Virus record (IMG/VR): IMGVR_UViG_3300042357_000538
Coordinates: 1 to 62,295 of that record
Strand: one strand, 5' to 3'
From: a virus
Taxonomy: Duplodnaviria; Caudoviricetes
Length of the DNA: 62,295 bases
A program made the position numbers and the translations under genes. This document shows, one piece after another, positions 20,824 through 46,520 of this stretch. The notes under the pieces were generated by a model that had not been told where the DNA came from, did not search any database, and saw only the letters and a list, made by a program, of their open reading frames with translations. Position 1 is the first letter of the stretch. Every line of letters starts with the position of its first letter.

Positions 20824-20898
20824 GGGTTAACACGGCCCGAGTCGAACGGGCTCCTCCCGGCCTTCCAGCCGGGCGCGCTTCCAATGCGCTACGTGATA
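20824..20898 (-). tRNA. Aberrant tRNA-like element with an 8-nt anticodon loop (CTGGAAGG)
   Basis: Acceptor TATCACG/CGTGTTA (one U-U), D arm GCGC-ATTGGAA-GCGC, anticodon stem CCCGG/CCGGG, T arm GCCCG-TTCGACT-CGGGC. Confidence 0.65.
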
Positions 20899-20904
20899 AC
20901 GGCG

Positions 20905-23037
20905 CTAGGCTGCCGGAGGGGCGGCCTGATCTGTGGGCCCGGGGGGCGGCGGGGCCTGCCCCGGGGGCGGGCCCTGCTCAGGCCCCTGCGGGGCCTGCGG
21001 CGGCGCCACGAGGGGCGCCAGCATGGGCATCAGCTCTTGCAAGTCCAGCTCCATCGCCAGGTTGTAGGCGTGGGTGGGGTTGACGTACTTCGCGTGGTAC
21101 ACCGCGTGGAGGATGGCCTGGCGCTTCTGGGCCAGGTCCCAGGCCTCGAACTCGGGGCTCTTGAACAGGGCGGTGTGGACCTCCCAGTGCAGCTCGTGGT
21201 TGTCCCACGGCTGGGGCGGGAGCTCCTGGAACTGGGCGCCGCGCTCGAACTTGGTGTTCTCGAGGCTGGCCTGCTCCTCATCCCGCCGGATGTCGTCCTG
21301 CAGCTCGCCCACGCCGTCGAGGTCGATGACCTTCAACCCCTTGGCGGCGGTCTTCGGATCGGCCTGGGGGCCGAGCATCCCGGTGGCGAACAGCTCCATC
21401 ACCTGCTTCGTGCGGACGGCCGGCGAGGAGGAGAGGGCGTTGCCGGTGAAGATCCGGATCTCGGCGTGCTCGTCGATGTTGTTCTGCGAGAACTCGAAGA
21501 CCTCGGGGGCGCTGTTCTTGCCGCGCACCGCGATCATGCGGGACACGTCGTAGTACTGCTTCATCATCCGCCGCAGCTTGTACATGGCCTCTTCCCAGGC
21601 CATTTCGTGGTTGCGGATGTCGGGCGCGTGGACAGAATTTGTTGCCTCTTGCAACAAATTCACCTGGAACCCCGAGCTGGTCCCCGCGCTGTTGCCCGCG
21701 GCGGTGGGGTACAAATTCGGGATGGTGTCCAGCTCTTGCCGGATGATGTCGAGGTGGCGCCAGGCATCGGCCGCGATGTTCTCGGGGCGGATGACCATCG
21801 GGGGCGGCACGTTCGGCGGGGTGAGGATCCGGATGACTTCGCCGGCCTCGGAGGTCCAGGCGTTCGCCGGGAACTTGCAGAGCGCGCTGACGATGATCTT
21901 CGGGTGCGCCTGGAGCCGAATCTGTTCCGCCGCCTTGGAGCGGATCAGGTTGTACTCCTTGTTGAGCGCCATCAACTGCTCGACGACGGTCGGCACCCAG
22001 TACTGGCCCGCGAACTCGGTGTCGGGGAACTCCACCACCGGGAACGGGTTGGCCATGTCGTGGAAGCCATACGGGAGCTGGTCCTCCGCGCGGAGCAGCA
22101 CGCCCCCGCCCACCACGGTGTAGCGCCCCTTGGGGAACGTCGCGGTGGGGCGCTCGAAGAGCTCCTTGACGATGACGTAGTCCTTCTGGGCCTTCTCCGG
22201 GCCGCCCTGGTGCGTGGCGGCGCCGCTCACCCCCGAGTAGGTGCGCGTGGCCAGGTTCGCGATCTGGCGCTGGTACTGGAAGATTTCCTGGGGCCCGGCG
22301 TCGGCCTTGATCCGCTCGGCGTGCTCGGGGTAGCGCTGGCGGAGGTCGTCCACATGGCGGAGCTTGACCCGCATGACCTTGGTCTGCTCGGCCAGGGAGG
22401 GCTGGCCGGGGTCGCCCACGAGGATCTCGAAGGGCGAGCCGACCTCCACGCACACGTCGCCCAGGGGCAGCTCGAGGACTTCCTCCTGGAGCTGCTGCGG
22501 GCCCAGCGTGCCGGCGGGGAGCTTGACCCGGCCCAGCTTGGACTCGTCCCAGTAGAACCACCAGTACCCGCGGCCCGTGGTGCAGGACCAGTTCAGGGCG
22601 TGGCGGTACTTCTTCTCGAGGCCCTCCTTGGCGCTGATGTACTTGAGCGCGCCCAGGGTGGCGCGCGCGTCCAGCTTGTCCTGGCGATCGAGGGAGGCGG
22701 GCACCACCAGGGGCTCGAAGCGCGTCTGGAGGAAGCGCGCCTGGCGCATCTTGTTCTTGGCGTAGACGTGGTTGATCGCCAGCCGGATGCGGTGGGGCGC
22801 CGCGGGCGTGAGCTCGAGCGCGGCCTGGGCCTCGTTCCACTGGACGTAGTGCTGCCCGCGGAGGAAGGCCGCGTTCAGGAACCACTGGATCTCGTGCGCG
22901 CGCCGATCGGAGCGGGCCTGGGTGAAGAACTCGTCCACCTTGCTGACGCGCTCGCGCTCCGCCTCCTCGGGCGGCGCTTGCGCCATGCCGGGGACGGGCT
23001 TGGTCAGGAAGGGATCGAGGGGGGCGAGTGGTTCCAT
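20905..23037 (-). CDS. Portal protein (P22-like size), 710 aa
   Basis: AFLRGQHY, LAINHV, VGSPFEILVGDP, PFPVVEF, VEQLMALNKEYN; follows the terminase. Confidence 0.85.
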   Translation of the reverse strand: MEPLAPLDPFLTKPVPGMAQAPPEEAERERVSKVDEFFTQARSDRRAHEIQWFLNAAFLRGQHYVQWNEAQAALELTPAAPHRIRLAINHVYAKNKMRQARFLQTRFEPLVVPASLDRQDKLDARATLGALKYISAKEGLEKKYRHALNWSCTTGRGYWWFYWDESKLGRVKLPAGTLGPQQLQEEVLELPLGDVCVEVGSPFEILVGDPGQPSLAEQTKVMRVKLRHVDDLRQRYPEHAERIKADAGPQEIFQYQRQIANLATRTYSGVSGAATHQGGPEKAQKDYVIVKELFERPTATFPKGRYTVVGGGVLLRAEDQLPYGFHDMANPFPVVEFPDTEFAGQYWVPTVVEQLMALNKEYNLIRSKAAEQIRLQAHPKIIVSALCKFPANAWTSEAGEVIRILTPPNVPPPMVIRPENIAADAWRHLDIIRQELDTIPNLYPTAAGNSAGTSSGFQVNLLQEATNSVHAPDIRNHEMAWEEAMYKLRRMMKQYYDVSRMIAVRGKNSAPEVFEFSQNNIDEHAEIRIFTGNALSSSPAVRTKQVMELFATGMLGPQADPKTAAKGLKVIDLDGVGELQDDIRRDEEQASLENTKFERGAQFQELPPQPWDNHELHWEVHTALFKSPEFEAWDLAQKRQAILHAVYHAKYVNPTHAYNLAMELDLQELMPMLAPLVAPPQAPQGPEQGPPPGQAPPPPGPTDQAAPPAA

Positions 23038-27273: not shown

Positions 27274-27513
27274 TCACAGGGCCCTCCCCAGGGCGATGAG
27301 GCTGATGACGACCCACGCGGCGGTCGTGCCGAGCAGGAATCCCACGCCCAGCCCCACCAGGAGGTTCAGCGCGTACCCCCGCCGCACCTCGGCCAGCAAC
27401 TGGGCCTCGATCTGGTCCCATTCCGTGTCGCTCCCCGCCCGCGCCACGTTCCGCGCGTGGTCGGATAGGGCCAGGTTCCCGCCCGGCTGGCGGCTACAAA
27501 GTGGCATCGACAT
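27274..27513 (-). CDS. Small membrane protein, 79 aa
   Basis: C-terminal hydrophobic stretch. Confidence 0.5.
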   Translation of the reverse strand: MSMPLCSRQPGGNLALSDHARNVARAGSDTEWDQIEAQLLAEVRRGYALNLLVGLGVGFLLGTTAAWVVISLIALGRAL

Positions 27514-28618
27514 GGTCCACCTTCTTGATGAAGTGGCGGTTCTTGTTCATGCCCCGGCCCTCGGCGAGGCGGGCCTGGACGTAGAGCTTCTGGAGCTGGC
27601 CCGCGGTCTTGCGCGAGCGGCTCTTCTGTTCGTTGAACACGTCCCCGAACGTGTAGGGGGAGGGCAGGGCGTTGAAGATCCGCGCCTGTTCCTGCGTGAG
27701 GCCGGGCACGGAGGGGGCGTAGCCGCGCGGGCGGCCGTTCTTGTCGTACACGCGCTCGAAGTACGTGGGGAGAATGTCCCCCTCGTGCTTGGAAAAGCCC
27801 GCGATGCAGTAGGTTTCCTCGGGGTAGGCGGTCCCCGCGCCCTTGGCGATGTCGATCCCCAGGCGGCAGTCGCTCTGATTGATGAGCGCACGGGTGCCGG
27901 CGGCCTCGTTCAGCCACTCGCGGTGGTTGCTTTCCAAATTCGGGGGGTCGATGCCCTTCTGGAGGCGCGCTTCCTTGCGCCGGTGGTGGACGATGATGAT
28001 GGCGCAGGCCGCTTTCGTGGCAATTTGCCGCAAATTGCGCATCACACGGGCGGCGACCTCGCTTTTCAGCTCGGCATCGGGCCAGAACGGCCGCAGGCAG
28101 TCGATGATGACCAGTTTCGGGCCCACGGCGGCCACCAGGTCGCCCACTTTCGCCTCGAATTCGCCCCCCAGGGCCTCTTCCGCCACCTGCGCGTTGGCCA
28201 GGAAGTAGCGGATGTCCTCTTCCCCGGGTGTCACGCCCAGAAAGTCCTCCAGGGCGCGGATGTAGCCCACGAAATGGGAGCCCGCGGACTCCGCATCGCA
28301 GAAGAGGACCTTCCCCTGCTGGGTATCGAGGCCCAGGAAGGGGGTCCCGGTGGCCACGCAGATGGCGAGTTGCTCGAGGAGGGGCGTCTTGCCCAGGCCG
28401 GAGTCCCCGATCAGGAGGTTGACGGTCCCCTCCATGATGAGGTCCTCCACGACGGCGGCTGGGGCCGCCGTCGCGATGGCCCGGAGCTGCGATTTGGTCA
28501 GCGCGTTGCGCAAGGCGAGGCTGTCGCCGGCCATGCCGGCCACGATGGACCCCTGTGGCGGGGCCAACTGGGGGTTGCTGAGGACCACATCGGGCCCCAG
28601 CGTGGTGATATCGACCAT
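27494..28618 (-). CDS. RSF1010 RepA-like (AAA_25, SF4) helicase
   Basis: GDSGLGKT, GKVLFCDAE, LVIIDCL, IIIVHHRRK, AGTRAL; GGAGGAACC RBS. Confidence 0.85.
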   Translation of the reverse strand: MVDITTLGPDVVLSNPQLAPPQGSIVAGMAGDSLALRNALTKSQLRAIATAAPAAVVEDLIMEGTVNLLIGDSGLGKTPLLEQLAICVATGTPFLGLDTQQGKVLFCDAESAGSHFVGYIRALEDFLGVTPGEEDIRYFLANAQVAEEALGGEFEAKVGDLVAAVGPKLVIIDCLRPFWPDAELKSEVAARVMRNLRQIATKAACAIIIVHHRRKEARLQKGIDPPNLESNHREWLNEAAGTRALINQSDCRLGIDIAKGAGTAYPEETYCIAGFSKHEGDILPTYFERVYDKNGRPRGYAPSVPGLTQEQARIFNALPSPYTFGDVFNEQKSRSRKTAGQLQKLYVQARLAEGRGMNKNRHFIKKVDHVDATL

Positions 28619-28719
28619 GGGTGGGTGGTTCCTCCGGGATGTGGGGCCCCGCCGTGGGGCCCCAGGGGTCGGGCGCTCATCCCCGACTCCTTGACCGTAC
28701 CACCCCTCTAGGGGGTAGA

Positions 28720-29470
28720 GTCAAGCGGGTGGCCGCATGGCGGCCACCTCCCCCTCGATCCCCCCGCGTCCCCCGGCGGAGCGCTGCGGAAGGGGGATGA
28801 TGAGGGGTTTGTGGCGCTAAGTCCCGCCACATCAGCGGGTTACGGGGAAAAGAAGGGTGGGGGATGAGGGCGGGAGGTCGGCGGGAGGAGCGTTTTCAGG
28901 CCTGTTTTCGCAGATCCGGCGGGGGATGATCTGGGGGACGATGGCGGGGGAGGCAGTGGGGCGCACACGGCGCCCCTTCGTCCCCCGGGTTGTCCCACTG
29001 GGGAGGTGAGAAAACCGGCCTGTTTTCGCTGAGTCCCTTTGCTCCCCCCTCGATCCCCCTGCTGTAAATAGTGTGTATCCCCTTTATTATCAATAGGATA
29101 GGGGGAAAAGGCGGGTTTCGTCCCCCCAAAAGGAGCTGAATACTCGCCAAGGGACTTCCCAGCCAGGGAAACGCCACCCGTCGGCGGAATGCCTGGACAC
29201 TGTAATCAAACCCCGGGGGGTCGCGCGCGCGGGAAAGGTGGGGTGTGGGTGGGGGTGGCGGGGAGGGGGAGGTCGGCCCCTTGTCCCCCGCCGTGTCCCC
29301 CTCGGCCCCCCTCGTGGCCCCTCTCCTGCCCTGTGTCCTGCTGAGGGGACGGACCCCTGTCCCCTTGCGGCCCCAGTCCCGTCCCACCCGTCCCCTTGCG
29401 GCCCGCTGGCCTGTCCCCCCTATGGGCCAGCCTCCCCGGCTGGCCTGTCCCCCCTATGCCACACTCACCC
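28720..29470. other. Non-coding strand-switch region; candidate replication origin or genome-end region
   Basis: Divergence point of the two gene blocks; AT-rich core at about 29060-29110; many (T)GTCCC(C) repeats at 29280-29455. Confidence 0.5.
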
Positions 29471-29481
29471 CTTGCCTCTGC

Positions 29482-29497
29482 TGGCATCCCCCTTGCA
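29482..29497 (+). promoter_or_regulatory. sigma54-type -24/-12 promoter TGGCAT-CCCCC-TTGCA
   Basis: Matches TGGCAC-N5-TTGCW with exact spacing; identical copy at 31783. Confidence 0.6.
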
Positions 29498-29509
29498 CCC
29501 TAGGTCGGC

Positions 29510-29713
29510 ATGGCACCGACCCGCACCCCCCACGGCTACCCCGTCACCCGGCTTCGTGCCGGGGACTACACCGTCGCCACTCCCGCCGGTGAGTGGACAA
29601 TCCGCCACGAACCCGACTTGCGCGGCTGGCTGGTGCAAGACCGGCACGACGGCGAAGTTTGCGCCACCCTCGCTGAGGCCCTGCGCTACCTCGACGCCAC
29701 CCTGACCCGCTAA
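29510..29713 (+). CDS. Early hypothetical protein, 67 aa
   Basis: First ORF of the plus-strand block; coding-like codon bias. Confidence 0.65.
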   Translation: MAPTRTPHGYPVTRLRAGDYTVATPAGEWTIRHEPDLRGWLVQDRHDGEVCATLAEALRYLDATLTR

Positions 29714-29753
29714 TCCCACGGCACCGACGCCGCCCCTGACCGGAGACACCGAC

Positions 29754-30125
29754 ATGACCACCGCACCCGCCCTGCCCGCCGCCTGCACTGCCGCCCATGC
29801 CGCCGCCGCCCGTGGCGCGGCCCAGTCCTTCCAAATCGAGCGCGAGGCTGAGGCCTTCCTCGGGCGGCGCTGGGCCTTCCTGCCCTTCGACGCCACCCAG
29901 CCCGCCTCGGCACACATCCAGGCCTTCGCGCAGGCCATCCTCCCGAACCTTGGCGAGGCCGAAGCCGCTGAGGCCCTCTGGGCCTGCGGGGAGCGTACCC
30001 CGGCCGACTTCGGCGGCGACGGCCTGCGCGGCTACGCCGACGCCTTCCGCCACACGGTCCTCGGGATGGTCGCCCGCGCCATCCTCGCCCGCTACGTCAT
30101 CGACCTGCCGGAACGGTGGAGGTGA
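29754..30125 (+). CDS. Early hypothetical protein, 123 aa
   Basis: GGAG RBS; codon bias. Confidence 0.7.
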   Translation: MTTAPALPAACTAAHAAAARGAAQSFQIEREAEAFLGRRWAFLPFDATQPASAHIQAFAQAILPNLGEAEAAEALWACGERTPADFGGDGLRGYADAFRHTVLGMVARAILARYVIDLPERWR

Positions 30126-30162
30126 TGGCCCGCTAACCCCCGCGCGGCCCCCCTCGGGGCCG

Positions 30163-30233
30163 CGCCCCGTAATGCCCCGAGCTGGTGACAAGGCCAGCAC
30201 CCGGAATGCCTCCGGGAGGCAGAGTCAGGAGCG
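30163..30233 (+). ncRNA. Twister ribozyme 1 (predicted cleavage U30170/A30171)
   Basis: UAA, P2 UGCC/GGCA, P4 GCUGG/CCAGC, L4 U-GAC-AA-GG, T1 GAC/GUC, T2 CC/GG, P5 hairpin, GA; matches the twister consensus. Confidence 0.88.
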
Positions 30234-30240
30234 AACCCCC

Positions 30241-30489
30241 ATGCAGACCATCTACGCCGCCCTCGCCAACGCCCCCTGCACCCACTGCGCCGGGACTGGA
30301 CTCCTCCACGACGCCCCCGACGAACACACCTGCCCCTACTGCCTCGGGCGCACGACGCCCGACGGCGAGGCCCTCGACAACGCCCCCTGCCTCCTCTGCG
30401 GCGGGACCGGCTACTCGGTGCTGGTCGCTCAGCCGACCAGCGACGACACCTGCCCCGACTGCATGGGCAGCGGCCTCGGCGGCCAGTAG
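30241..30489 (+). CDS. Small DnaJ-type zinc-finger protein (CxxCxGxG-like x4)
   Basis: CTHCAGTG, CPYCLG, CLLCGGTG, CPDCMGSG; AGGAG RBS. Confidence 0.7.
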   Translation: MQTIYAALANAPCTHCAGTGLLHDAPDEHTCPYCLGRTTPDGEALDNAPCLLCGGTGYSVLVAQPTSDDTCPDCMGSGLGGQ

Positions 30490-30492
30490 CCC

Positions 30493-30570
30493 CTATGACA
30501 CACCGGGGCCAGACCACCGGCCCCAGCCCAGCGTATAAAGGGGTAGACCGGGCGGCTTGAGCCGCCGCCC
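30493..30570 (+). promoter_or_regulatory. Repeated element: CTATGACACA, GC inverted repeat, CGTATAAAGG, GAGCC-loop hairpin
   Basis: Same architecture and 41-42 nt spacing at 32462 and 33787. Confidence 0.65.
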
Positions 30571-30597
30571 GCCCCTTGCACCCGGAGGAACCATCCC

Positions 30598-30807
30598 ATG
30601 TCCAGCACCACGCCCATCAACACGCCCTACGCCGTCCTCGAACTGGGCGACGGCCACTTCGTCGTCGCCCGACGGTACCTGCGCGAGGACGGTATCCCGG
30701 TCTACCGGCTGGTGCCGGGAACGGCCGACTGGAGCTACCGCACGGTGCATTTCCGCGCTTCCGGCCTCGCTCAGCAGTCCGCAGTGCGCGAGGAGGTGGC
30801 GAAGTGA
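30598..30807 (+). CDS. Early hypothetical protein, 69 aa
   Basis: GGAGGAACC RBS. Confidence 0.7.
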   Translation: MSSTTPINTPYAVLELGDGHFVVARRYLREDGIPVYRLVPGTADWSYRTVHFRASGLAQQSAVREEVAK

Positions 30808-31145
30808 ACGCCTTCAGCCCGTCCATCCGCTACACCCTCGCCATCGGCCACAACGTCGCCGGTTTCCCCCACTGGTCCCGGGAGACCGTCGAGAGCACGG
30901 TCTCCGCCAATTGGACCCTGCCCGGCTTCACCCTGACCTCGGCCTTTGGCCGCTGGGAAGGCGTGGACGAAGACAGCACCCTCGTCACCTACCTCGGGGA
31001 CGCCTCCGACGAGGCGGCCATCCTCGCCATCGCGGAGCGCATCGCGGCCGACCTGCAGCAGGACGCCGTGCTGGTGACCGCCGAACCCGTGCGCGTCGCC
31101 TTCGTGTCGGCCCTGCGGGCCGACCGGGCCGAACCCGCCGCCTAG
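30804..31145 (+). CDS. SAM-lyase-like / DUF3574-like (PII-type fold) protein, 113 aa
   Basis: GFTLTSAFGRWEGVDEDSTLV...IAERIAADLQQDAVLV resembles the G-x-(W/Y)...E...QD-x-VLV pattern of T3 SAMase; GTG start with AGGAGG RBS. Confidence 0.6.
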   Translation: MNAFSPSIRYTLAIGHNVAGFPHWSRETVESTVSANWTLPGFTLTSAFGRWEGVDEDSTLVTYLGDASDEAAILAIAERIAADLQQDAVLVTAEPVRVAFVSALRADRAEPAA

Positions 31146-31172
31146 CCCCGTGTGGCCCCGCAAGGGGCCCAC

Positions 31173-31252
31173 GCTCGTAATGCCAGCGCCCGGTCCCAAC
31201 TCCGGGCAGTGGCGGGACCATCCTGGCCCCGACCACTCGGCAGAGGGAGAGC
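31173..31252 (+). ncRNA. Twister ribozyme 2 (predicted cleavage U31178/A31179)
   Basis: P1 GCUC/GAGC, P2 UGCC/GGCA, P4 GCCCGG/CCGGGC, L4 U-CCC-AA-CU, T1 CCC/GGG, T2 AG/CU. Confidence 0.88.
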
Positions 31253-31267
31253 AAAGGACACACTGCC

Positions 31268-31456
31268 ATGCCGCGCTACGCGTTCCTGCCCGACCTGCGC
31301 CTCGCGTCCCTCTGGTTCGACGCGGGCTGCGACCCCGTCGCCTACCGCGAGGCGCTCGTCGAGTACCTCGACGAGTCGCCCGACCTGCCGCTGGCCGACC
31401 TGCCCGTGGCCGACGCCGAACTCCGCCGCCTCGACGCCCTGCTGGGCGAGGACTAG
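31268..31456 (+). CDS. Small acidic protein, 62 aa
   Basis: AAAGGA RBS directly after twister 2. Confidence 0.65.
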   Translation: MPRYAFLPDLRLASLWFDAGCDPVAYREALVEYLDESPDLPLADLPVADAELRRLDALLGED

Positions 31457-31460
31457 CGCC

Positions 31461-31772
31461 ATGCCTGCCAACCTCCTCACGCCCATCCCGTGCCCGACCC
31501 CCGGCCGCGTGTGGCTGGTCCCCGCGCTGCCGACCCTCTGGGCCGCCTCCAAAAGCCGCGCCGACAAGGGCCAGGTACTGGCCGCCCTGCGCCGGGAGTG
31601 CGCCGCGCCCAACGTGCGCCGCCCCTTCCGCTGGGAACGGGTTGATGTCGGCCTGCGCACCTACTGGGCACCCTGCTGGGATGCGCCCGCCGCCTGCGCC
31701 CTGTCCCCGCGACAGGCCGAGCAGTACTGCTTTGGGGGACTGGTGCCCTACCCGACCGCCCTCAGGGGGTGA
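31461..31772 (+). CDS. Early hypothetical protein, 103 aa
   Basis: GAGGA RBS; start MPANLLT. Confidence 0.6.
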   Translation: MPANLLTPIPCPTPGRVWLVPALPTLWAASKSRADKGQVLAALRRECAAPNVRRPFRWERVDVGLRTYWAPCWDAPAACALSPRQAEQYCFGGLVPYPTALRG

Positions 31773-31782
31773 CACCACCCCT

Positions 31783-31798
31783 TGGCATCCCCCTTGCA
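31783..31798 (+). promoter_or_regulatory. sigma54-type -24/-12 promoter TGGCAT-CCCCC-TTGCA
   Basis: Identical 16-mer to 29482; predicted start just upstream of GGAGG and ATG 31826. Confidence 0.6.
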
Positions 31799-31825
31799 CC
31801 CTGACCACACCGGAGGAACCATCCC

Positions 31826-32362
31826 ATGAGCCACCCGACCGCCGCCGACTTCGCCTTCATCCGCCACGACGCCCGCGCGTGGTGGCATCACCGTGACCTG
31901 CGCGCCGCCGGTCGCCACGCCGAGGCCGCCCGCCTCGAACGCCGCAGCATCGCCAGCAAAATCCGCGACCTCCGGCGCGCCTGCCTCGTCGGGGTGGGCG
32001 CGGTCTCCCCGTGGTACGTCTCCGGGACGCACAGCAGCCTGTCCACGACCTCCGGCTGCGCGCCCGACACCCTCGCCCTGTTCGCCCGGTTCGCGCCCCA
32101 GACGCCGCGCGTGGACAAGCGCGCGCTGCACGCGGCCGACCCGGCGCGCTTCGCGCGCCTCGTCTACACCGCGCCCCTCCTCTCGCCCGACCGCGCCGAG
32201 GACGAAGTGAGCAGCATCGCGTATGTCACCCCCGGCCTGTACTGCGCCATCTGGGAGGCCCTCGGCGCGACGGTCCACTGGGGCGCGCTTGACGCCCAGG
32301 CCTTCCGCCGCGACCCCCGTGTGGCCGCGCATCTGGCCCGCATGACTCCAGGCGAGGCGTAG
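31826..32362 (+). CDS. Early hypothetical protein, 178 aa
   Basis: GGAGGAACC RBS. Confidence 0.7.
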   Translation: MSHPTAADFAFIRHDARAWWHHRDLRAAGRHAEAARLERRSIASKIRDLRRACLVGVGAVSPWYVSGTHSSLSTTSGCAPDTLALFARFAPQTPRVDKRALHAADPARFARLVYTAPLLSPDRAEDEVSSIAYVTPGLYCAIWEALGATVHWGALDAQAFRRDPRVAAHLARMTPGEA

Positions 32363-32392
32363 TCGGCCCGTCTCGCGGCCCCTCGGGGCCGC

Positions 32393-32463
32393 GCCGTAAT
32401 GCTCCTGACCGGTGCCAAGGCCGGTCGGTCGGTGCGTACCGCACCGCCTCAGCAGAGGCCGGT
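32393..32463 (+). ncRNA. Twister ribozyme 3 (predicted cleavage U32397/A32398)
   Basis: P1 GCCG/CGGU, P2 UGCU/AGCA, P4 GACCGG/CCGGUC, L4 U-GCC-AA-GG, T1 GCC/GGC, T2 CC/GG. Confidence 0.88.
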
Positions 32464-32535
32464 ATGACACACGCGCCCCTCGGCCACCGGTCGGGGGCCA
32501 GCGTCTAAGGGGGTGGAGGGCAGGAGCCGCCCTCC
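32462..32535 (+). promoter_or_regulatory. Repeated element: GTATGACACA, inverted repeat, CGTCTAAGGG, GAGCC-loop hairpin
   Basis: Second copy of the 30493 element. Confidence 0.65.
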
Positions 32536-32558
32536 CCCCGAACTGGAGCGAACCACCC

Positions 32559-32834
32559 ATGACGACTGTCCTGAACCTCCTACACGACGGCCCCGCCGAT
32601 GCGGCGGGCACCCACGGCAACGGCACCCAACTGCATTTCACCCTGACCCCTGGCGAACTGGGCAACGGGGAGGAATTCCTGCTCTCCCTCTGGGACAGTG
32701 CCGAGCAGGCGCAGCGCTACGGGCGCAGCGAGAACGAAGAGGTGCTGGTGCTGACCCTCACCCCCGAGCAGTGCGCCCAGGTCGCCGCTGCCGCCGCCCG
32801 CGCCACCGTCCGCTGGAACCGCGAGGAGGCCTAA
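32559..32834 (+). CDS. Early hypothetical protein, 91 aa; paralogous to 34874..35179
   Basis: LTLTPEQCAQV versus LELTPEQRARL. Confidence 0.65.
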   Translation: MTTVLNLLHDGPADAAGTHGNGTQLHFTLTPGELGNGEEFLLSLWDSAEQAQRYGRSENEEVLVLTLTPEQCAQVAAAAARATVRWNREEA

Positions 32835-32838
32835 CGCC

Positions 32839-33006
32839 ATGCTGAACCCGCGCACCCTCGCCGCCCGCTACCTCCGGACCTACGGCCCGGAGTACGCCCT
32901 CTCTGCCGCCCTGGCCGCCCTCGACGAGGCCCAGGCCTTCGGCTCCGCCACCCGCATCGCGACCCTCGAAGCCGTGGTCGCCACGCTCGAAACCGAGGTG
33001 CTGTGA
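32839..33006 (+). CDS. Early hypothetical protein, 55 aa (not in the ORF track)
   Basis: MLNPRTLAARYLRTYGPEYAL...; GAGGAGG RBS. Confidence 0.6.
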   Translation: MLNPRTLAARYLRTYGPEYALSAALAALDEAQAFGSATRIATLEAVVATLETEVL

Positions 33007-33203
33007 TGCCGCGCTACCGATTCACCCTCACGCGCACCCGCCTGCAGTCCCTGGTGGTGGAGATGGTCGCGCTTGACGCGCAGGAAGCGGAACACCTGCT
33101 GTGCGACGAACTGGATGAAGCCGACCCGTTCGACGCGCTGGTGTGGTCCGACGGCGAGAACGAGGGCGAGGTGGACTACGACTTCGATGGGGAGGTGCGC
33201 TGA
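33006..33203 (+). CDS. Small acidic protein
   Basis: Translationally coupled; D/E-rich C-terminus. Confidence 0.6.
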   Translation: MPRYRFTLTRTRLQSLVVEMVALDAQEAEHLLCDELDEADPFDALVWSDGENEGEVDYDFDGEVR

Positions 33204-33565
33204 TGTTGCGCCTGGGCCTCGACACCGGGTCGGCCATCAACCACCTCATGTCGCGCGCGCGGGTGACCATCCCGGCGGTCGGGGATGGGGCGACCGTCCT
33301 GATGTGGACCGACCGACACGCGGCCACCGTGGTCGCCGTCAAGGAAACGCCGGCGCTGGTCAAGGTGACCGTGCAGGAGGACCGCGCAGTCCGCACCGAC
33401 AGCAACGGCATGAGCGAGGTGCAGGCCTACGCCTTCACGCCGAACCCAGCCGCGCCGCTGCAGACGTTCACCTTCCGCAAGACGCCCGGCGGGCTGGTCT
33501 TGCGGGGCAAGGGGCGCGGTCTCCTGCTGGGCCATCGTGAGGAGTACCGCGACTTCAGTTTCTGA
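33203..33565 (+). CDS. Conserved phage hypothetical protein, 120 aa
   Basis: PAVGDGATVLMWTDRHAATV...GHREEYRDFSF; TGATG coupling. Confidence 0.7.
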   Translation: MLRLGLDTGSAINHLMSRARVTIPAVGDGATVLMWTDRHAATVVAVKETPALVKVTVQEDRAVRTDSNGMSEVQAYAFTPNPAAPLQTFTFRKTPGGLVLRGKGRGLLLGHREEYRDFSF

Positions 33566-33591
33566 CCCAATGGCGGGGCCACGGCCCCGCC

Positions 33592-33666
33592 CCTCGTAAT
33601 GCCGCAGCGCCCAGTGGCAAGCCTGGGCGCGGCGGGGATACTCCCCGCCGAGGGCAGAGCCAGAGG
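33592..33666 (+). ncRNA. Twister ribozyme 4 (predicted cleavage U33597/A33598)
   Basis: P1 CCUC/GAGG, P2 UGCC/GGCA, P4 GCGCCCAG/CUGGGCGC, L4 U-GGC-AA-GC, T1 GGC/GCC, T2 GC/GC. Confidence 0.88.
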
Positions 33667-33677
33667 AAGGAACCGCC

Positions 33678-33785
33678 ATGACCAGCATCCGCTCCCATCG
33701 TGTGGGCCGCGCCCACGCCCTGACCCTGACCGGAGGCCCAGCGATGACCACCACCCTGCCCGACGGCTGGTGGCGGGACGCCTGA
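33678..33785 (+). CDS. 35-aa peptide directly after twister 4
   Basis: GGAAGGAACC RBS; MTSIRSHRVGRAHALTLTGGPAMTTTLPDGWWRDA. Confidence 0.45.
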   Translation: MTSIRSHRVGRAHALTLTGGPAMTTTLPDGWWRDA

Positions 33786-33786
33786 G

Positions 33787-33866
33787 CTATGACACAGCCG
33801 GGGCCGACCAGCGGTCGGCCCCCACCGTCTAAGGGAGTACCAGGGCGCGGGCACTGAGCCGCCCGC
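33787..33866 (+). promoter_or_regulatory. Repeated element: CTATGACACA, inverted repeat, CGTCTAAGGG, GAGCC-loop hairpin
   Basis: Third copy of the 30493 element. Confidence 0.65.
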
Positions 33867-33887
33867 CCCCCTTTGGAGGAACCACCG

Positions 33888-34304
33888 ATGATGACCAACC
33901 CGGCGCAACGCGCCACCCCCACCGTGCAGCAGGAGTCGCAGTTCGGCCAGGACCCCGGCGATATCCAGGTCGCGCTGCCCGCGCTCTTCAGCGCCGACTG
34001 CACCGAGGCGACCCGCGAGTTCCGGACGCGCCCGGACCTCCAGGTGCGATGGTTCATGCCCCTGCGGGCCGCAGGCCCGGAGTCGGACCCGACCGCCCGC
34101 CTCCTCGGGCAGGTGGAACTGTTCGGCGTCCTCCACCACATCGACCTCACCGCCATCCGCCTGGACGGTGACCTCCAGGTGGTGGACTGCCCCGAGGAGG
34201 AGTGCCTGGGCGAGGAGATGTTCACGGTCGTCGGCGGGGCACTCGACCCCGTCATGGTCAACGGACGCCTCTACGGCGTCCTCATCTACCCCTACGGGTA
34301 CTAG
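33888..34304 (+). CDS. Early hypothetical protein, 138 aa
   Basis: GGAGGAACC RBS. Confidence 0.7.
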   Translation: MMTNPAQRATPTVQQESQFGQDPGDIQVALPALFSADCTEATREFRTRPDLQVRWFMPLRAAGPESDPTARLLGQVELFGVLHHIDLTAIRLDGDLQVVDCPEEECLGEEMFTVVGGALDPVMVNGRLYGVLIYPYGY

Positions 34305-34555: not shown

Positions 34556-34768
34556 ATGCCGACCATCATCACCCTGACCGTCACCGTCCACGACTCCATC
34601 CCCGAGGCCGCCGAGGCGCTGCATGTGCTGCCCGCGACCCTGCCCCAGGCCATCGCCGAGGAACTCCAGTCCGCGCTGGACTGGGAGACCGGCCTCCACG
34701 CCTCGGTCGAGGTCGCCTCGGTCACCGAGCTGCCCGAGGTCGCGACCGCCACCATCGTTGTGTCATAG
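34556..34768 (+). CDS. Small acidic protein, 70 aa
   Basis: AGGAGG RBS. Confidence 0.6.
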   Translation: MPTIITLTVTVHDSIPEAAEALHVLPATLPQAIAEELQSALDWETGLHASVEVASVTELPEVATATIVVS

Positions 34769-34842
34769 CCCCTTGCGGGGTATTGACACCGCGCACCACG
34801 CGCCCGTAGTATCCGGGGGTCGGGCTTGAGCCGCCCGACCCC
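34759..34842 (+). promoter_or_regulatory. Inverted TGTGTCATAG box, TTGACA-N18-TAGTAT promoter and GAGCC-loop hairpin
   Basis: Read directly. Confidence 0.7.
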
Positions 34843-36407: not shown

Positions 36408-36967
36408 GCACGACCACCACCACCCGCGAGTTCAGCCTGGAGGGGCGCGCCCTGGCCGACCTGCAGCAGCAACTCAGCGCCGCCCGCGTGGCCGCCTTCG
36501 AGGCCAAGAGTGTCGCCGACTTCTGGCAGGCCGTCATTGACCTCGGCCCAGTCCAGACCGCCCCGGCCGGTGCCGAGCGCACGCATCTGATGGATGCCTG
36601 CAAGGACAGTGCAGGGTGGGCGCCCTGTCTGTTCGACCTGACGCCACCTGAGGCATGGCAGCACTGGCGCAACATTGCGCACGACCAAGCGACGGAACTC
36701 ACCGCCGCCCGTGCGGAGGCGGCGGCGCTGAAGGCGGACCGTGACGAGTGGATGGCGTCGAGCGCCGGATACGGCAGCGACATGGTCGAGTGGAAGATCC
36801 GAGCGCAGCAAGCCGAAGCCACAGCAGCGCGGCTGCGGGAGGCACTTGAGATTTATGGATGGCATAGGCCGTCCTGCCGCCTCAGGGCACCCGGCATGGC
36901 AACCGACGGGAAGTGTGACTGTGGGTTGAGAGCCGCCCTCGCGGCGAAGGAGGGCGACCGTGGGTGA
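36404..36967 (+). CDS. Coiled-coil protein with a C-terminal H-x3-C...CDCG metal-binding motif
   Basis: GGAGG RBS; start MSTTTTT. Confidence 0.65.
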   Translation: MSTTTTTREFSLEGRALADLQQQLSAARVAAFEAKSVADFWQAVIDLGPVQTAPAGAERTHLMDACKDSAGWAPCLFDLTPPEAWQHWRNIAHDQATELTAARAEAAALKADRDEWMASSAGYGSDMVEWKIRAQQAEATAARLREALEIYGWHRPSCRLRAPGMATDGKCDCGLRAALAAKEGDRG

Positions 36968-37076
36968 GTGGGCACTGTGGATGCTGATAGGGGCGCTATT
37001 CGCGCTGGCGGTCGTGTGTGCGGGGTACCTCTACGCCACCCGCCCAACCGTTCCATGCAAGGGGCGCAGTCTGTGA
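36960..37076 (+). CDS. 38-aa membrane peptide
   Basis: AAGGAGG RBS with GTG; MGEWALWMLIGALFALAVVCAGYLY. Confidence 0.5.
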   Translation: MGEWALWMLIGALFALAVVCAGYLYATRPTVPCKGRSL

Positions 37077-37088
37077 AGGAGGCCGACC

Positions 37089-37280
37089 GTGGGTGAGTGG
37101 CGACCGATTGAGACTGAGATGCCAAAGGGACAGGACACCTTGGTGGTGTTCTCTGACGGCTCCATGCAGGTGGCTGAGTGGGACGCGGGCTGCGACGACC
37201 ATTTGATGGCGTTCGGTGATGGGCTCCCCACCCACTGGATGCCCCTCCCCGCCCCACCGAAGGAGGCCGACCGTGGGTAA
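37089..37280 (+). CDS. DUF551-family protein
   Basis: WRPIET...PTHWMPLPAPP. Confidence 0.8.
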   Translation: MGEWRPIETEMPKGQDTLVVFSDGSMQVAEWDAGCDDHLMAFGDGLPTHWMPLPAPPKEADRG

Positions 37281-37428
37281 CTACGTGACCGACCTCCAGT
37301 GGTGGACCGCCACGACGACGTACACGCACACGCCGCCGACCTGGGTTGACCTGTACCGGCGCATTCCAGCCGATGGGCCGCTGGGCCTGACCCGGCTGCG
37401 ATACGAGGAGGCCAACCGTGGCGAGTGA
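37273..37428 (+). CDS. Small hypothetical protein
   Basis: AAGGAGG RBS with GTG. Confidence 0.5.
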   Translation: MGNYVTDLQWWTATTTYTHTPPTWVDLYRRIPADGPLGLTRLRYEEANRGE

Positions 37429-43426: not shown

Positions 43427-43761
43427 CACTCACCGACGAGCAGGTGCGGGCGCTGGCGGAGGAAGTCCACGACGTGGAGCAGACGTGGGAGGGGCACACG
43501 TTCCGCTTCATGTTCACCGGGCGTGAGCCGATCCGCCAGCATGTGCGGGCCGACGCGGTCAAGGCCCTCGCCACCGAAGTCCTCGCCAGCCGGGGGCGGC
43601 GGTGTGGGGCGTGTGTCTACTGGGAGGCCCACCCAGACTTGTGGGCACAAGACTCGGACGGCAATCACTTGGGAAACTGTGGCCGAGGAGTGGACGCAGA
43701 GAGTGGCTGCACGCGCCTGCGCTGGTCCTGCGCCGACTTCACCCCCAAGGGTGTGTCATAG
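43423..43761 (+). CDS. Hypothetical protein with CGACVYW...GNC...CADF
   Basis: ATGA coupling. Confidence 0.6.
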   Translation: MTLTDEQVRALAEEVHDVEQTWEGHTFRFMFTGREPIRQHVRADAVKALATEVLASRGRRCGACVYWEAHPDLWAQDSDGNHLGNCGRGVDAESGCTRLRWSCADFTPKGVS

Positions 43762-43794
43762 CCCTTGACAACGGGTAAGCAAGGGGCGTAAGGT
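43752..43794 (+). promoter_or_regulatory. Inverted TGTGTCATAG box plus TTGACA-N18-TAAGGT promoter
   Basis: Read directly. Confidence 0.65.
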
Positions 43795-46432: not shown

Positions 46433-46512
46433 CTATGACACAGCGCGTAACCCCCGCGCGCGCAGAAACATGGCGGAAAGGCCTTGACGCTACCCCTGCC
46501 CACCCCTAGGAT
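46433..46512 (+). promoter_or_regulatory. CTATGACACA box plus TTGACG-N17-TAGGAT promoter; near-leaderless polymerase mRNA
   Basis: The -10 element ends 8 nt before ATG 46521. Confidence 0.6.
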
Positions 46513-46520
46513 AAGAGGGC

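What the first reader, a model, noticed from the sequence alone, without database searches (positions are those of the whole stretch)
30143..33666. Array of four twister self-cleaving ribozymes punctuating the early region
Seen: four intergenic elements (30163-30233, 31173-31252, 32393-32463, 33592-33666) share CGTAATGC...T-NNN-AA-NN...GCAGAG. They differ in sequence but keep every pairing. The T1 pseudoknot is GAC/GUC, CCC/GGG, GCC/GGC, GGC/GCC; T2 is CC/GG, AG/CU, CC/GG, GC/GC; P2 is UGCC/GGCA or UGCU/AGCA. Each has its own P4 and P5 and no P3 stem. Known: this is the twister fold, which cleaves U/A in UAA to leave a 2',3'-cyclic phosphate and a 5'-OH. Inference: the covariation implies all four are maintained by selection, and the phage cuts its host-takeover transcripts without protein, an RNA-only analogue of T7 RNase III processing.
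Basis: partly seen in the sequence, partly recalled or inferred. Interest (0 to 1): 0.95.

Follow-up and report, generated by a model that had tools for sequence, protein, structure and literature searches.

The report
Four twister ribozymes in phage operon
Four intergenic RNA elements in the early-gene operon of an uncultured lake phage fit the twister self-cleaving ribozyme fold, so the phage probably cuts its long early transcript into gene-sized pieces without a protein nuclease, as hammerhead ribozymes are already thought to do in prophages.

Summary
There are exactly four plus-strand elements, with the predicted U/A cut at 30170/1, 31178/9, 32397/8 and 33597/8. Each has the twister core: UAA, P2, T2, P4 with a GU-NNN-AA-NN loop, P5, P2', GA, T1' and P1'. 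Of 80 pair cells, 74 are paired (T1 12/12, T2 8/8, P2 16/16), with compensatory changes between copies.

Rfam's curated models do not reach their thresholds (best 18.9 bits against a cut-off of 67.2). The reason is the rare architecture: P0 and P5 present, P3 absent. A covariance model built only from 19 twisters of the same architecture in unrelated contigs finds exactly these four (E 2e-8 to 7e-5; next hit E 2.4). It finds nothing in 0.98 Mb of decoy DNA that carries the bare sequence motifs.

Each ribozyme follows a GC-rich hairpin, and three of the four sit just before a ribosome-binding site and start codon. The same hairpin-twister-RBS cassette recurs in arrays in unrelated metagenome contigs.

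Cleavage and its role are inferred, not shown. Ribozyme arrays that process prophage transcripts are already described for hammerheads (2011). These are therefore new members of a known kind, of moderate interest.

The parts
30142..30165 (+). P0-like GC-rich hairpin upstream of twister E1 (10 bp, tetraloop). It would form the 3' end of the upstream cleavage product.
   Evidence: MFE folds
30165..30231 (+). Twister E1. P1 30165-30169/30227-30231; predicted cut 30170|30171; P2 30173-30176/30218-30221; T2 30177-30178/30192-30193; P4 30181-30185/30194-30198; T1 30187-30189/30224-30226; P5 30200-30216; conserved G 30222. P1' (AGGAG) is the Shine-Dalgarno sequence of the ORF starting at 30241.
   Evidence: (26.1 bits, E 2.4e-5)
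31149..31173 (+). P0-like hairpin upstream of twister E2.
31173..31252 (+). Twister E2. P1 31173-31177/31248-31252; predicted cut 31178|31179; P2 31181-31184/31239-31242; T2 31185-31186/31200-31201; P4 31188-31193/31202-31207; T1 31195-31197/31245-31247; branched P5 31208-31237; conserved G 31243. An SD-like AAGGA follows P1'; start codon at 31268.
   Evidence: (36.4 bits, E 2.2e-8)
32375..32392 (+). P0-like hairpin upstream of twister E3.
32392..32464 (+). Twister E3. P1 32393-32396/32460-32463; predicted cut 32397|32398; P2 32400-32403/32451-32454 (UGCU/AGCA); T2 32404-32405/32419-32420; P4 32407-32412/32421-32426; T1 32414-32416/32457-32459; P5 32427-32449; conserved G 32455. No ORF follows directly; the TATGACACA element starts at 32463.
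   Evidence: (24.4 bits, E 7.4e-5); variants
33572..33591 (+). P0-like hairpin upstream of twister E4.
33592..33666 (+). Twister E4. P1 33592-33596/33662-33666; predicted cut 33597|33598; P2 33600-33603/33653-33656; T2 33604-33605/33621-33622; P4 33607-33614/33623-33630; T1 33616-33618/33659-33661; P5 33631-33649; conserved G 33657. P1' (AGAGG) overlaps the purine-rich SD region of the 35-codon ORF starting at 33678.
   Evidence: Rfam twister-P1 18.9 bits; 25.9 bits, E 2.7e-5
29510..34304 (+). Plus-strand run of small ORFs, almost all without annotation, that the four ribozymes punctuate at intervals of 1008, 1219 and 1200 nt. It lies downstream of the 0.9 kb non-coding region 28620-29509.
   Evidence: the consensus scan finds no sigma-70-like promoter between 28500 and 34782

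Best explanation
The four elements are genuine type-P1 twister self-cleaving ribozymes of a rare architecture: P0 hairpin and P5 stem present, P3 absent. They are transcribed as part of the plus-strand early operon of a 62 kb tailed phage from lake water.

Each folds co-transcriptionally into the double-pseudoknot twister fold and cuts its own backbone between U and A of the UAA. The predicted cuts are 30170/1, 31178/9, 32397/8 and 33597/8.

- **Upstream product.** It ends in the GC-rich P0 hairpin, a 4 to 5 nt tail and a 2',3'-cyclic phosphate.
- **Downstream product.** It begins with a 5'-OH on the compact ribozyme fold, followed within 14 to 20 nt (three of four copies) by a start codon with a Shine-Dalgarno sequence.

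The long transcript is thereby cut into pieces of about 1 to 1.2 kb without a protein nuclease. In E1 and E4 the 3' strand of P1 is itself the Shine-Dalgarno region. Loss of the short 5' strand after cleavage would expose it.

**Shown here:** sequence, fold and covariation. **Inferred:** cleavage, the chemistry of the ends, and the effects on mRNA stability and translation.
For: 1. **Exactly four copies, all on the coding strand.** None occur in reverse or in the control.
2. **Core letters agree with the Rfam consensus lines printed.** These are UAAUGC.., GGU...AA..C and .GCAGAG.. of Twister-P5 and twister-P1.
3. **Pairing within the four.** 74 of 80 cells are paired: T1 12/12, T2 8/8, P2 16/16, P4 23/24, P1 15/20. 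Both sides change in T1, T2, P2, P4 and P1. Cross-copy pairings are far worse (mean 52.3).
4. **Pairing in the wider set.** With 17 twisters of the same architecture from other contigs, 87.9% of 420 cells are paired against 66.3% in shuffles (0 of 500 reach the observed value). Sliding the partners by 1 to 3 columns gives 31.7 to 43.1%.
5. **Independent model.** R1 was built from 19 foreign sequences only. Run over the whole window with filters off, it gives 36.4, 26.1, 25.9 and 24.4 bits (E 2.2e-8 to 7.4e-5) at the four sites. The next match scores 9.1 bits, E 2.4.
6. **Decoy control.** In 100 viral loci (980,557 bases), each carrying the bare motifs but failing the pseudoknot test, R1 gives 0 matches at E up to 1.
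7. **Thermodynamic folds.** Without pseudoknots they reproduce P0, P1, P2, P4 and P5 in E1, E2 and E4, and P0, P1, P4 and P5 in E3. The z-scores are -3.3 to -4.9.
8. **Architecture is within the family.** P1, P2 and P4 are essential; P0, P3 and P5 are optional (PMC5408937). P0, P3 and P5 occur in 21%, 78% and 1% of twisters (PMC6154101).
9. **The cassette recurs elsewhere.** Unrelated contigs carry the same hairpin-twister-SD-ATG arrangement. L155 has 5 copies in 4.4 kb and L141 has 3 in 1.6 kb.
10. **Precedent.** Hammerhead arrays flank prophage genes and cleave in vitro and in vivo (PMC3088659).
Against: - **No curated Rfam model reaches its gathering score.** One search gives none. One search gives twister-P1 18.9 bits against 67.2, and Twister-P5 19.7 against 37.6, the latter with an alignment that wrongly uses the P0 hairpin.
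- **The custom model is partly circular.** Its training set was fetched with motifs taken from this window and filtered for T1, T2 and P2 pairing. The E-values come from a shortened calibration.
- **P1 is weak in E1** (3 of 5 pairs). In E1, E2 and E4 the pair next to the cleavage site is a G.A mismatch.
- **The nucleotide before P2' varies.** It is A in 15 of 19 foreign twisters (read by eye) but A, C, C, G in the four copies here.
- **T2 departs from the usual GC/GC** in three copies, though with compensation.
- **E3's minimum-energy fold** replaces P2 with an alternative helix.
- **No cleavage assay and no RNA data.** Activity, end chemistry and every downstream effect are inferred.
Confidence: 0.82

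Rival explanations
1. The elements are twister-derived but conditional or catalytically impaired. They keep the fold, and the variable P5 and P0 domains or the weak P1 make cleavage depend on a factor (a ligand, a protein, transcription speed). Alternatively they act mainly as structured 5'-UTR or 3'-end elements with little cleavage.
For: - P5 differs completely between the copies, in length and sequence.
- P1 is weak, with a G.A next to the cleavage site in three copies.
- The junction nucleotide before P2' is not the usual A in three copies (by eye).
- Authors of engineered twister switches suggested that natural P1 and P5 additions could be regulatory (PMC5052635, passages).
Against: - All core letters that the Rfam consensus lines show in capitals for the cleavage site, P2, the L4 loop and the GA before T1' are kept in all four.
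- P5 stems are simple hairpins with no conserved loop or bulge that would suggest a binding pocket.
- The same simple-P5 architecture is common in unrelated contigs.
Confidence: 0.1
2. After cleavage, the pieces between successive ribozymes are rejoined or circularised. These pieces carry a 5'-OH and a 2',3'-cyclic phosphate. Joining could be by a host RtcB-type ligase or by the reverse twister reaction. On this reading the array makes circular or spliced mRNAs, not just linear pieces.
For: - Successive same-strand twisters would give exactly the ends that RtcB joins (established chemistry; recalled, not tested).
- The P1 strands are nearly interchangeable between copies: 15 of 20 P1 cells pair in the native arrangement, up to 14 of 20 in a rearrangement, and up to 12 of 20 in the derangements. 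The 3' tail of one piece could therefore dock on the P1' of its own 5' end.
- The hammerhead paper raises successive cleavage and ligation as an alternative for prophage arrays (PMC3088659).
Against: - No data show joined forms.
- The interchangeability of P1 is what paralogous copies would show anyway.
- No RtcB-like gene was noticed among the ten larger proteins scanned.
- The host is unknown.
Confidence: 0.05
3. The elements are not ribozymes. They would be a repeated terminator-plus-RBS or protein-binding intergenic cassette whose likeness to twister is a coincidence of a GC-rich genome.
For: - Rfam thresholds are not reached.
- Each element begins with a terminator-like hairpin and three end at an RBS.
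- GC-rich DNA forms stable helices easily.
Against: - Two pseudoknots with compensatory changes in all four copies (T1 12/12, T2 8/8) are not explained by a terminator or an operator.
- 117 of 119 chance matches to the bare motifs in viral contigs fail the T1 plus T2 test. 100 of these loci gave no model hit.
- The hairpins lack a U tract (one search finds no terminator-like site at them).
Confidence: 0.03

Closest known systems
Twister ribozyme, type P1 (Rfam RF03160; clan CL00120 with RF02684 type P5)
   Same: - U/A cleavage-site context UAA.
- P1, P2 and P4 stems.
- T1 and T2 pseudoknots between the P4 loop (GU-NNN-AA-NN) and the strands flanking P2.
- A conserved GA after P2'.

The strings UAAUGC and GCAGAG are identical to the Twister-P5 consensus line printed.
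   Different: - No P3, which is present in 78% of twisters.
- P5 present, as in 1% of twisters (PMC6154101).
- An upstream hairpin in the place recalled for P0.
- T2 is not GC/GC in three copies, but it is compensated.
- Scores are far below Rfam's gathering thresholds.
Multiple hammerhead ribozymes flanking genes in prophages (Perreault et al. 2011, PMC3088659)
   Same: Several self-cleaving ribozymes lie on one strand, each between genes or short gene blocks of a phage. The proposed role is processing of long phage transcripts into gene-length mRNAs. For the hammerheads, cleavage was shown in vitro and in E. coli.
   Different: - A different ribozyme class.
- Here the array lies in a complete free-phage genome record, in the presumed early operon, at a regular spacing of about 1 to 1.2 kb.
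- Each copy carries a 5' hairpin and, in three of four, an RBS directly behind it.
RNase III processing of phage T7 early transcripts
   Same: Intercistronic cuts in a polycistronic early transcript would leave a hairpin at the 3' end of each upstream mRNA. This is recalled textbook knowledge and an analogy only.
   Different: T7 uses a host protein nuclease that cuts within a duplex and leaves 5'-phosphate and 3'-OH ends. Here the RNA would cut itself 4 to 5 nt after the hairpin and leave 2',3'-cyclic phosphate and 5'-OH ends. There is no sequence or structural relation.
Engineered twister switches with the Shine-Dalgarno sequence masked in a ribozyme stem (Felletti et al. 2016, PMC5052635)
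   Same: In E1 and E4 the 3' strand of P1 is the purine-rich SD region. This resembles the engineered constructs in which cleavage raised reporter expression, about 5-fold in the P1 format.
   Different: Those constructs are artificial. E2 has its SD just behind P1', not within it, and E3 has no ORF behind it. No expression data exist for the natural elements.

Membership tests
Twister ribozyme (clan CL00120) | [quoted passage not shown] | tested here: met
   P2 16/16, P4 23/24 and P1 15/20 cells paired in the four copies, with changes on both sides. The stems are reproduced by MFE folds.
Twister ribozyme (clan CL00120) | Two pseudoknots, T1 and T2, between the P4 loop and the strands flanking P2 | tested here: met
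   T1 12/12 and T2 8/8 cells paired. There are four different T1 sequences and three different T2 sequences, all compensated. In the 21-sequence alignment both are 100% paired, but the 17 foreign rows were pre-filtered for this.
Twister ribozyme (clan CL00120) | Strongly conserved nucleotides of L1 and L4, and the scissile U-A next to P1 | tested here: met
   All four keep UAA, UGC of P2, GU and AA of the loop, the C closing the loop, GCA of P2' and GA. This was checked against the capital letters of the Rfam consensus lines and the invariant columns. The primary list of more than 97% conserved positions (Roth 2014) could not be read.
Twister ribozyme (clan CL00120) | Score at or above Rfam's gathering threshold | tested here: not met
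   No hit at gathering score. Twister-P1 scores 18.9 bits against 67.2 at E4, and Twister-P5 scores 19.7 against 37.6 with a misaligned hit at E2. Rfam also gave no hit at E up to 1 for the twisters with P5 and no P3 in L062, L095 and L124, and only a differently placed Twister-P5 match overlapping the one in L125. The failure therefore reflects architecture. It is an operational threshold, not a defining property.
Twister ribozyme (clan CL00120) | Match to a covariance model of twisters with the same optional stems | tested here: met
   R1, built from 19 foreign sequences, hits the four sites at 24.4 to 36.4 bits, and the next hit scores 9.1 bits. It gives 0 hits in 0.98 Mb of motif-bearing decoys.
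Twister ribozyme (clan CL00120) | Site-specific self-cleavage giving a 2',3'-cyclic phosphate and a 5'-OH | not testable with these tools
   No RNA run holds the region, and there is no bench assay.
Twister-sister ribozyme (RF02681) | No T1/T2 pseudoknots, and cleavage on the opposite strand of the internal loop (PMC5408937) | tested here: not met
   Both pseudoknots are present and covary. Twister-sister is not among the hits listed, although one lower-scoring overlapping same-clan match was left out there.
Prophage self-cleaving ribozyme arrays (functional class, PMC3088659) | Several ribozymes on the coding strand, flanking single genes or short gene blocks of a phage | tested here: met
   Four copies on the plus strand lie between blocks of 1, 2, 3 and 4 ORFs. 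The same holds in L155 and L141.

The most novel reading that the evidence does not exclude
The P0 hairpin, twister and Shine-Dalgarno cassette may be a widespread, modular 'self-cutting cistron boundary' of phages that does more than cut.

- It would couple translation to processing, because the SD is held in P1 until cleavage.
- Because every internal piece carries a 5'-OH and a 2',3'-cyclic phosphate with mutually compatible P1 strands, the pieces could be circularised by a host RtcB-type ligase or by the reverse reaction. This would give natural circular phage mRNAs, a natural counterpart of engineered twister-flanked circular RNA systems.
Probability: 0.07. Interest if true: 0.9.

Novelty: new member of a known kind. 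Interest (0 to 1): 0.5.

Why it matters
The biological role of bacterial and phage twister ribozymes is still described as elusive (PMC5408937; PMC6765202).

This record is a complete-looking phage genome with direct terminal repeats. It carries four paralogous but well-diverged twisters at regular intervals in one operon, and each sits in the same hairpin-ribozyme-RBS arrangement. The arrangement recurs in unrelated contigs. That turns a vague idea ('ribozymes near phage genes') into a concrete, testable model of protein-free operon processing, 3'-end protection and RBS unmasking.

There is also a practical point. Rfam's twister models miss this architecture (P5 present, P3 absent), so twisters are probably under-counted in viral and metagenomic data.

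Tried and rejected
**Rfam.** The gathering scan of the whole window found only a tRNA. The permissive scan gave two sub-threshold twister hits among noise.

**Search for relatives.**
- A 6 kb nucleotide search against GenBank phages found no match.
- A protein-based search for related viral contigs with the AAA_25 protein found none.
- The portal protein is only about 24% identical to portals of Arthrobacter and Microbacterium phages, and PolA is similarly distant. No close relative could be surveyed and the host stays unknown.
- tblastn of 37 window proteins against all fetched loci gave only two integrase hits in unrelated loci. The other twister arrays therefore belong to unrelated elements.

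**Sequencing runs.** No RNA holder is listed; all 24 listed rows are DNA runs from lake water metagenomes. Laying four DNA runs gave fragmentary, low-depth contigs. Within the ribozymes, the only changes shown in the listed part of the table (20 further differences were not shown) were 32437 T>C in the E3 P5 loop and 32447 C>A, which turns a U.C mismatch in E3 P5 into U-A. Both come from one contig at depth 2.5, which is too weak to count.

**Bare-motif scan of viral contigs.** Only 2 passed the T1 plus T2 test. A scan of 185,579 species genomes with the CCC/GGG version gave 32 matches, of which 2 passed the P2 and T2 filter. One of those (L239) is a clear twister, so this form is rare in that set.

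**Alignment.** MAFFT on the four copies alone puts E4 out of register. I therefore used the 21-row alignment A5 for the pair counts. L167 and L192, near-duplicates of L130 and L186, were dropped from A5 but kept in the model alignment A2. L095 was excluded from both because its fourth P2 pair is A.C.

**Upstream-hairpin and SD counts.** These are descriptive and have no shuffle control.
- 18 of 29 foreign hits have a hairpin of -10 kcal/mol or better.
- 20 of 29 have a start codon with an SD-like motif.
- 7 of 29 have the SD starting inside P1'.

**Literature.** Searches found no paper in the held library that describes a twister array in a phage operon. The primary twister papers were not held (Roth 2014, Weinberg 2015, Felletti 2017), so they may contain such examples. 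What I say of them is recalled or taken from reviews. Supplements were not opened. The supplements of PMC3088659 (figures of the hammerhead arrays) could bear on the comparison. Passages read in PMC8782182, PMC10879173 and PMC5737381 added nothing specific.

**The TATGACACA elements.** I considered whether they are a second ribozyme class. Rfam gave nothing there and the consensus fold is only two hairpins. This is left as an aside.

Full report
**What the window is.** The window is a whole IMG/VR virus record of 62,295 bases with direct terminal repeats and 70.6% G+C. Its near-identical DNA occurs in lake-water metagenome runs.

Third-position G+C marks the genes:
- Minus strand from 0.4 to 28.6 kb. 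This block includes a P22-like portal at 20905-23037 and an AAA_25 ATPase at 27494-28618.
- Plus strand from 29.5 to 51 kb. This block includes a PD-(D/E)XK nuclease, a tyrosine integrase and a family A DNA polymerase.
- Minus strand again from 51 to 62 kb.

The finding lies at the start of the plus-strand block, just after a 0.9 kb non-coding region (28620-29509). It sits among small ORFs that match almost nothing. 'Early region' is therefore plausible but inferred. The nearest cultured phages are very distant: the portal is about 24% identical to those of Arthrobacter and Microbacterium phages. A nucleotide search found none.

GTAATGC followed 30 to 60 nt later by GCAGAG occurs four times on the plus strand (30169, 31177, 32396, 33596). 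It never occurs on the minus strand and never in the backwards-read control. Each site reads, 5' to 3':
1. a GC-rich hairpin of 8 to 10 bp;
2. a 4 to 5 nt pyrimidine-rich P1 strand;
3. UAA;
4. UGCN (P2);
5. two nucleotides (T2);
6. a 5 to 8 bp P4 stem whose loop is U-NNN-AA-NN;
7. a private P5 hairpin;
8. NGCA (P2');
9. GA;
10. three nucleotides complementary to the loop NNN (T1');
11. a purine-rich P1' strand.

There are only 1 to 2 nt where P3 would be.

**Is it more than chance?**
- Within the four copies, 74 of 80 pair cells are standard pairs: T1 12/12, T2 8/8, P2 16/16, P4 23/24, P1 15/20.
- Pairing the 5' halves of one copy with the 3' halves of another drops this to a mean of 52.3 (maximum 57) over the nine derangements. 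The complementarity is therefore specific to each copy, which means compensatory change.
- Chance matches to the same bare motifs look different. Both of those have a P4 stem as well and look like twisters.
- Minimum-energy folds without pseudoknots reproduce P0, P1, P2, P4 and P5 in E1, E2 and E4, and all but P2 in E3. The z-scores are -3.3 to -4.9 against dinucleotide shuffles.

**The Rfam result and why it fails.** No twister family reaches its gathering score. In the permissive mode, twister-P1 aligns E4 end to end at 18.9 bits (cut-off 67.2). It does so by deleting the model's P3 and inserting our P5. Twister-P5 gives 19.7 bits at E2 with an alignment that misuses the upstream hairpin.

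The consensus lines printed there nevertheless show the same core strings as ours: UAAUGC.GC, GGUC.CAAGCCCG and .GCAGAG.G. According to reviews, P1, P2 and P4 are essential, and P0, P3 and P5 are optional (PMC5408937, passages). The optional stems occur in 21%, 78% and 1% of twisters (PMC6154101, passages). Our elements thus combine a minority state (no P3) with a rare one (P5), which the curated models penalise.

Rfam behaves the same way elsewhere. In five other contigs it found canonical twisters and a hammerhead. It missed the twisters with P5 and no P3 in L062, L095 and L124 at E up to 1. In L125 it gave only a differently placed Twister-P5 match (37.3 bits) overlapping the element.

**An independent model.** I collected twisters of this architecture from other sources. 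The pattern used the CCC/GGG form of T1, with 5 matches in viral contigs and 93 stretches in metagenome contigs. I kept those in which the fourth P2 pair, T2 and T1 all pair: 19 distinct sequences. I then aligned them and built model R1 with P1, P2 and P4 annotated.

- Run over the whole window with filters off, R1 finds exactly the four elements at 36.4, 26.1, 25.9 and 24.4 bits (E 2.2e-8 to 7.4e-5, rough calibration). The next match scores 9.1 bits, E 2.4.
- As a control for circularity (the training set was fetched with motifs taken from this window), I ran R1 over 100 viral loci. These total 980,557 bases and each contains the bare motifs without the pseudoknot complementarity. There were no matches at E up to 1.
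- On a joint alignment of the four with 17 foreign twisters, 87.9% of 420 cells pair against 66.3% in shuffles (0 of 500 reach it). After sliding the partners, 31.7 to 43.1% pair. The foreign rows were pre-filtered for T1, T2 and one P2 pair, so only their P1 and P4 are unbiased there.

**Context and likely mechanism.** The predicted cuts (30170/1, 31178/9, 32397/8, 33597/8) lie 4 to 5 nt after the hairpin.
- Three ribozymes are followed by a start codon 14 to 20 nt after T1', with an SD-like motif (ORFs at 30241, 31268, 33678).
- In E1 the P1' strand AGGAG is the SD itself. In E4 it overlaps the purine-rich SD region. In E2 the SD follows one nucleotide later.
- E3 has no ORF behind it and runs into a separate conserved element.
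- The consensus scan finds no sigma-70-like promoter between 28500 and 34782. One long transcript through all four is therefore plausible but not shown.

The most likely working is self-cleavage that turns the polycistronic RNA into pieces of 1008, 1219 and 1200 nt. Each piece would end in a protective hairpin with a cyclic phosphate. Each would begin with a 5'-OH buried in the ribozyme fold, and in some copies the RBS would be released when the short P1 5' strand leaves. Engineered twisters with a masked SD behave this way in E. coli (PMC5052635, passages). All of this beyond the fold itself is inference.

**The cassette is not unique to this phage.** R1 found further twisters in the loci that had brought in the training sequences (29 hits in 19 loci).
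- L155, a 4.4 kb contig, has five on one strand. L141 (1.6 kb) has three. L062, L145, L169 and L213 have two each, and Rfam's permissive scan found a third in L062.
- In L155, four of the five have a clear upstream hairpin (-11.5 to -20.2 kcal/mol). Four are followed by an SD-like motif and an ATG, and T1 varies between copies (CCC/GGG, GAC/GUC, GGC/GCC).
- Of the 29 foreign hits, 18 have an upstream hairpin of -10 kcal/mol or better and 20 have a start codon with an SD-like motif within 45 nt (no shuffle control).
- None of these contigs shares proteins with our phage, apart from two integrase hits in unrelated loci.

**Comparison with what is known.**
- Arrays of hammerhead ribozymes flanking single genes or short gene blocks in prophages were described in 2011. 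The same processing hypothesis was proposed, and cleavage was shown in vitro and in E. coli (PMC3088659, passages).
- Twister was recognised as a ribozyme because its neighbouring genes resemble those of bacterial hammerheads.
- A role in processing polycistronic mRNAs, and a link to phages, have been suggested for these bacterial ribozymes (PMC6765202, passages).
- My five literature searches found no description of a twister array in a phage early operon. However, the primary twister papers are not held.

I therefore rate this as new members of a known kind. The points of interest are a clean four-copy array in a complete phage genome, a rare architecture that Rfam misses, a recurrent hairpin-ribozyme-RBS cassette, and SD sequences lying in P1'.

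**Verdict.**
- Observation confirmed.
- Identity as twister ribozymes strongly supported in silico (confidence about 0.8 to 0.9).
- Catalysis and function not tested.

Noticed in passing
window 30490-30597, 32459-32558, 33784-33887 (+): A second conserved intergenic element of about 100 nt occurs three times in the same operon. It reads TATGACACA, a GC hairpin, CCA(G/C)CGT(A/C)TAA(A/G)GG, a second hairpin, then the RBS. One copy directly follows twister E3. The other two follow the short ORFs behind E1 and E4. There is no Rfam match and the function is unknown. It could be a regulated promoter or a leader RNA.
   Followed up: partly
window 34759-34812, 43752-43790, 46434-46513: TATGACACA occurs 6 times exactly, and 9 times with up to 1 mismatch against 2.1 expected. 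The two inverted copies at 34759 and 43752 abut sigma-70-like promoters (TTGACA-18-TAGTAT, and TTGACA-18-TAAGGT read by eye). A forward copy at 46434 lies about 45 nt upstream of a third, TTGACG-17-TAGGAT (by eye). This looks like an operator or activator site.
   Followed up: partly
window 28620-29509: A 0.9 kb non-coding region lies between the divergent gene blocks. It has a low-GC patch near 29040-29110 and short direct repeats (GTCCCCTTGCGGCCC twice; CTGGCCTGTCCCCCCTATG twice). It is probably the control or origin region.
   Followed up: no
window 30582, 31810, 34858 (also 33872, 43999, 49238): A near-identical translation-initiation leader, CCGGAGGAACCA(T/C)CCCATG, is reused in front of several genes. 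CCCTTGCACCC occurs exactly at 29490, 30573 and 31791.
   Followed up: no
window 20827-20898 (-): A tRNA gene (Rfam 47.5 bits) lies between the portal gene and the next structural gene.
   Followed up: no
window 36946-37284 (+): Three copies of a 26 nt repeat (GAAGGAGG.CGACCGTGGGT.A.T..) are spaced 129 and 184 nt apart (family D14). They may be repeated starts of small paralogous ORFs, or iterons.
   Followed up: no
L155:1659-4380 and L141:220-1117: Unrelated metagenome contigs carry denser twister arrays: five copies in 4.4 kb and three in 1.6 kb. Most copies have an upstream hairpin and an SD plus start codon behind them. L125 carries a twister and a hammerhead 0.4 kb apart.
   Followed up: partly
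about 25 metagenome loci, e.g. L132:313-375, L134, L142, L149: A conserved sequence of about 130 nt, shared by many metagenome contigs, matched the search pattern by chance and fails the twister pairing test. It is clearly a conserved RNA or gene segment of some abundant lineage. It was not identified.
   Followed up: no
window 30241-30489 (+): The 82-residue ORF directly behind twister E1 is a tandem CxxC zinc-finger protein with an internal 111 nt repeat (family D19). It has a weak PHROG match to Q-like antiterminator families (E 6e-6).
   Followed up: no
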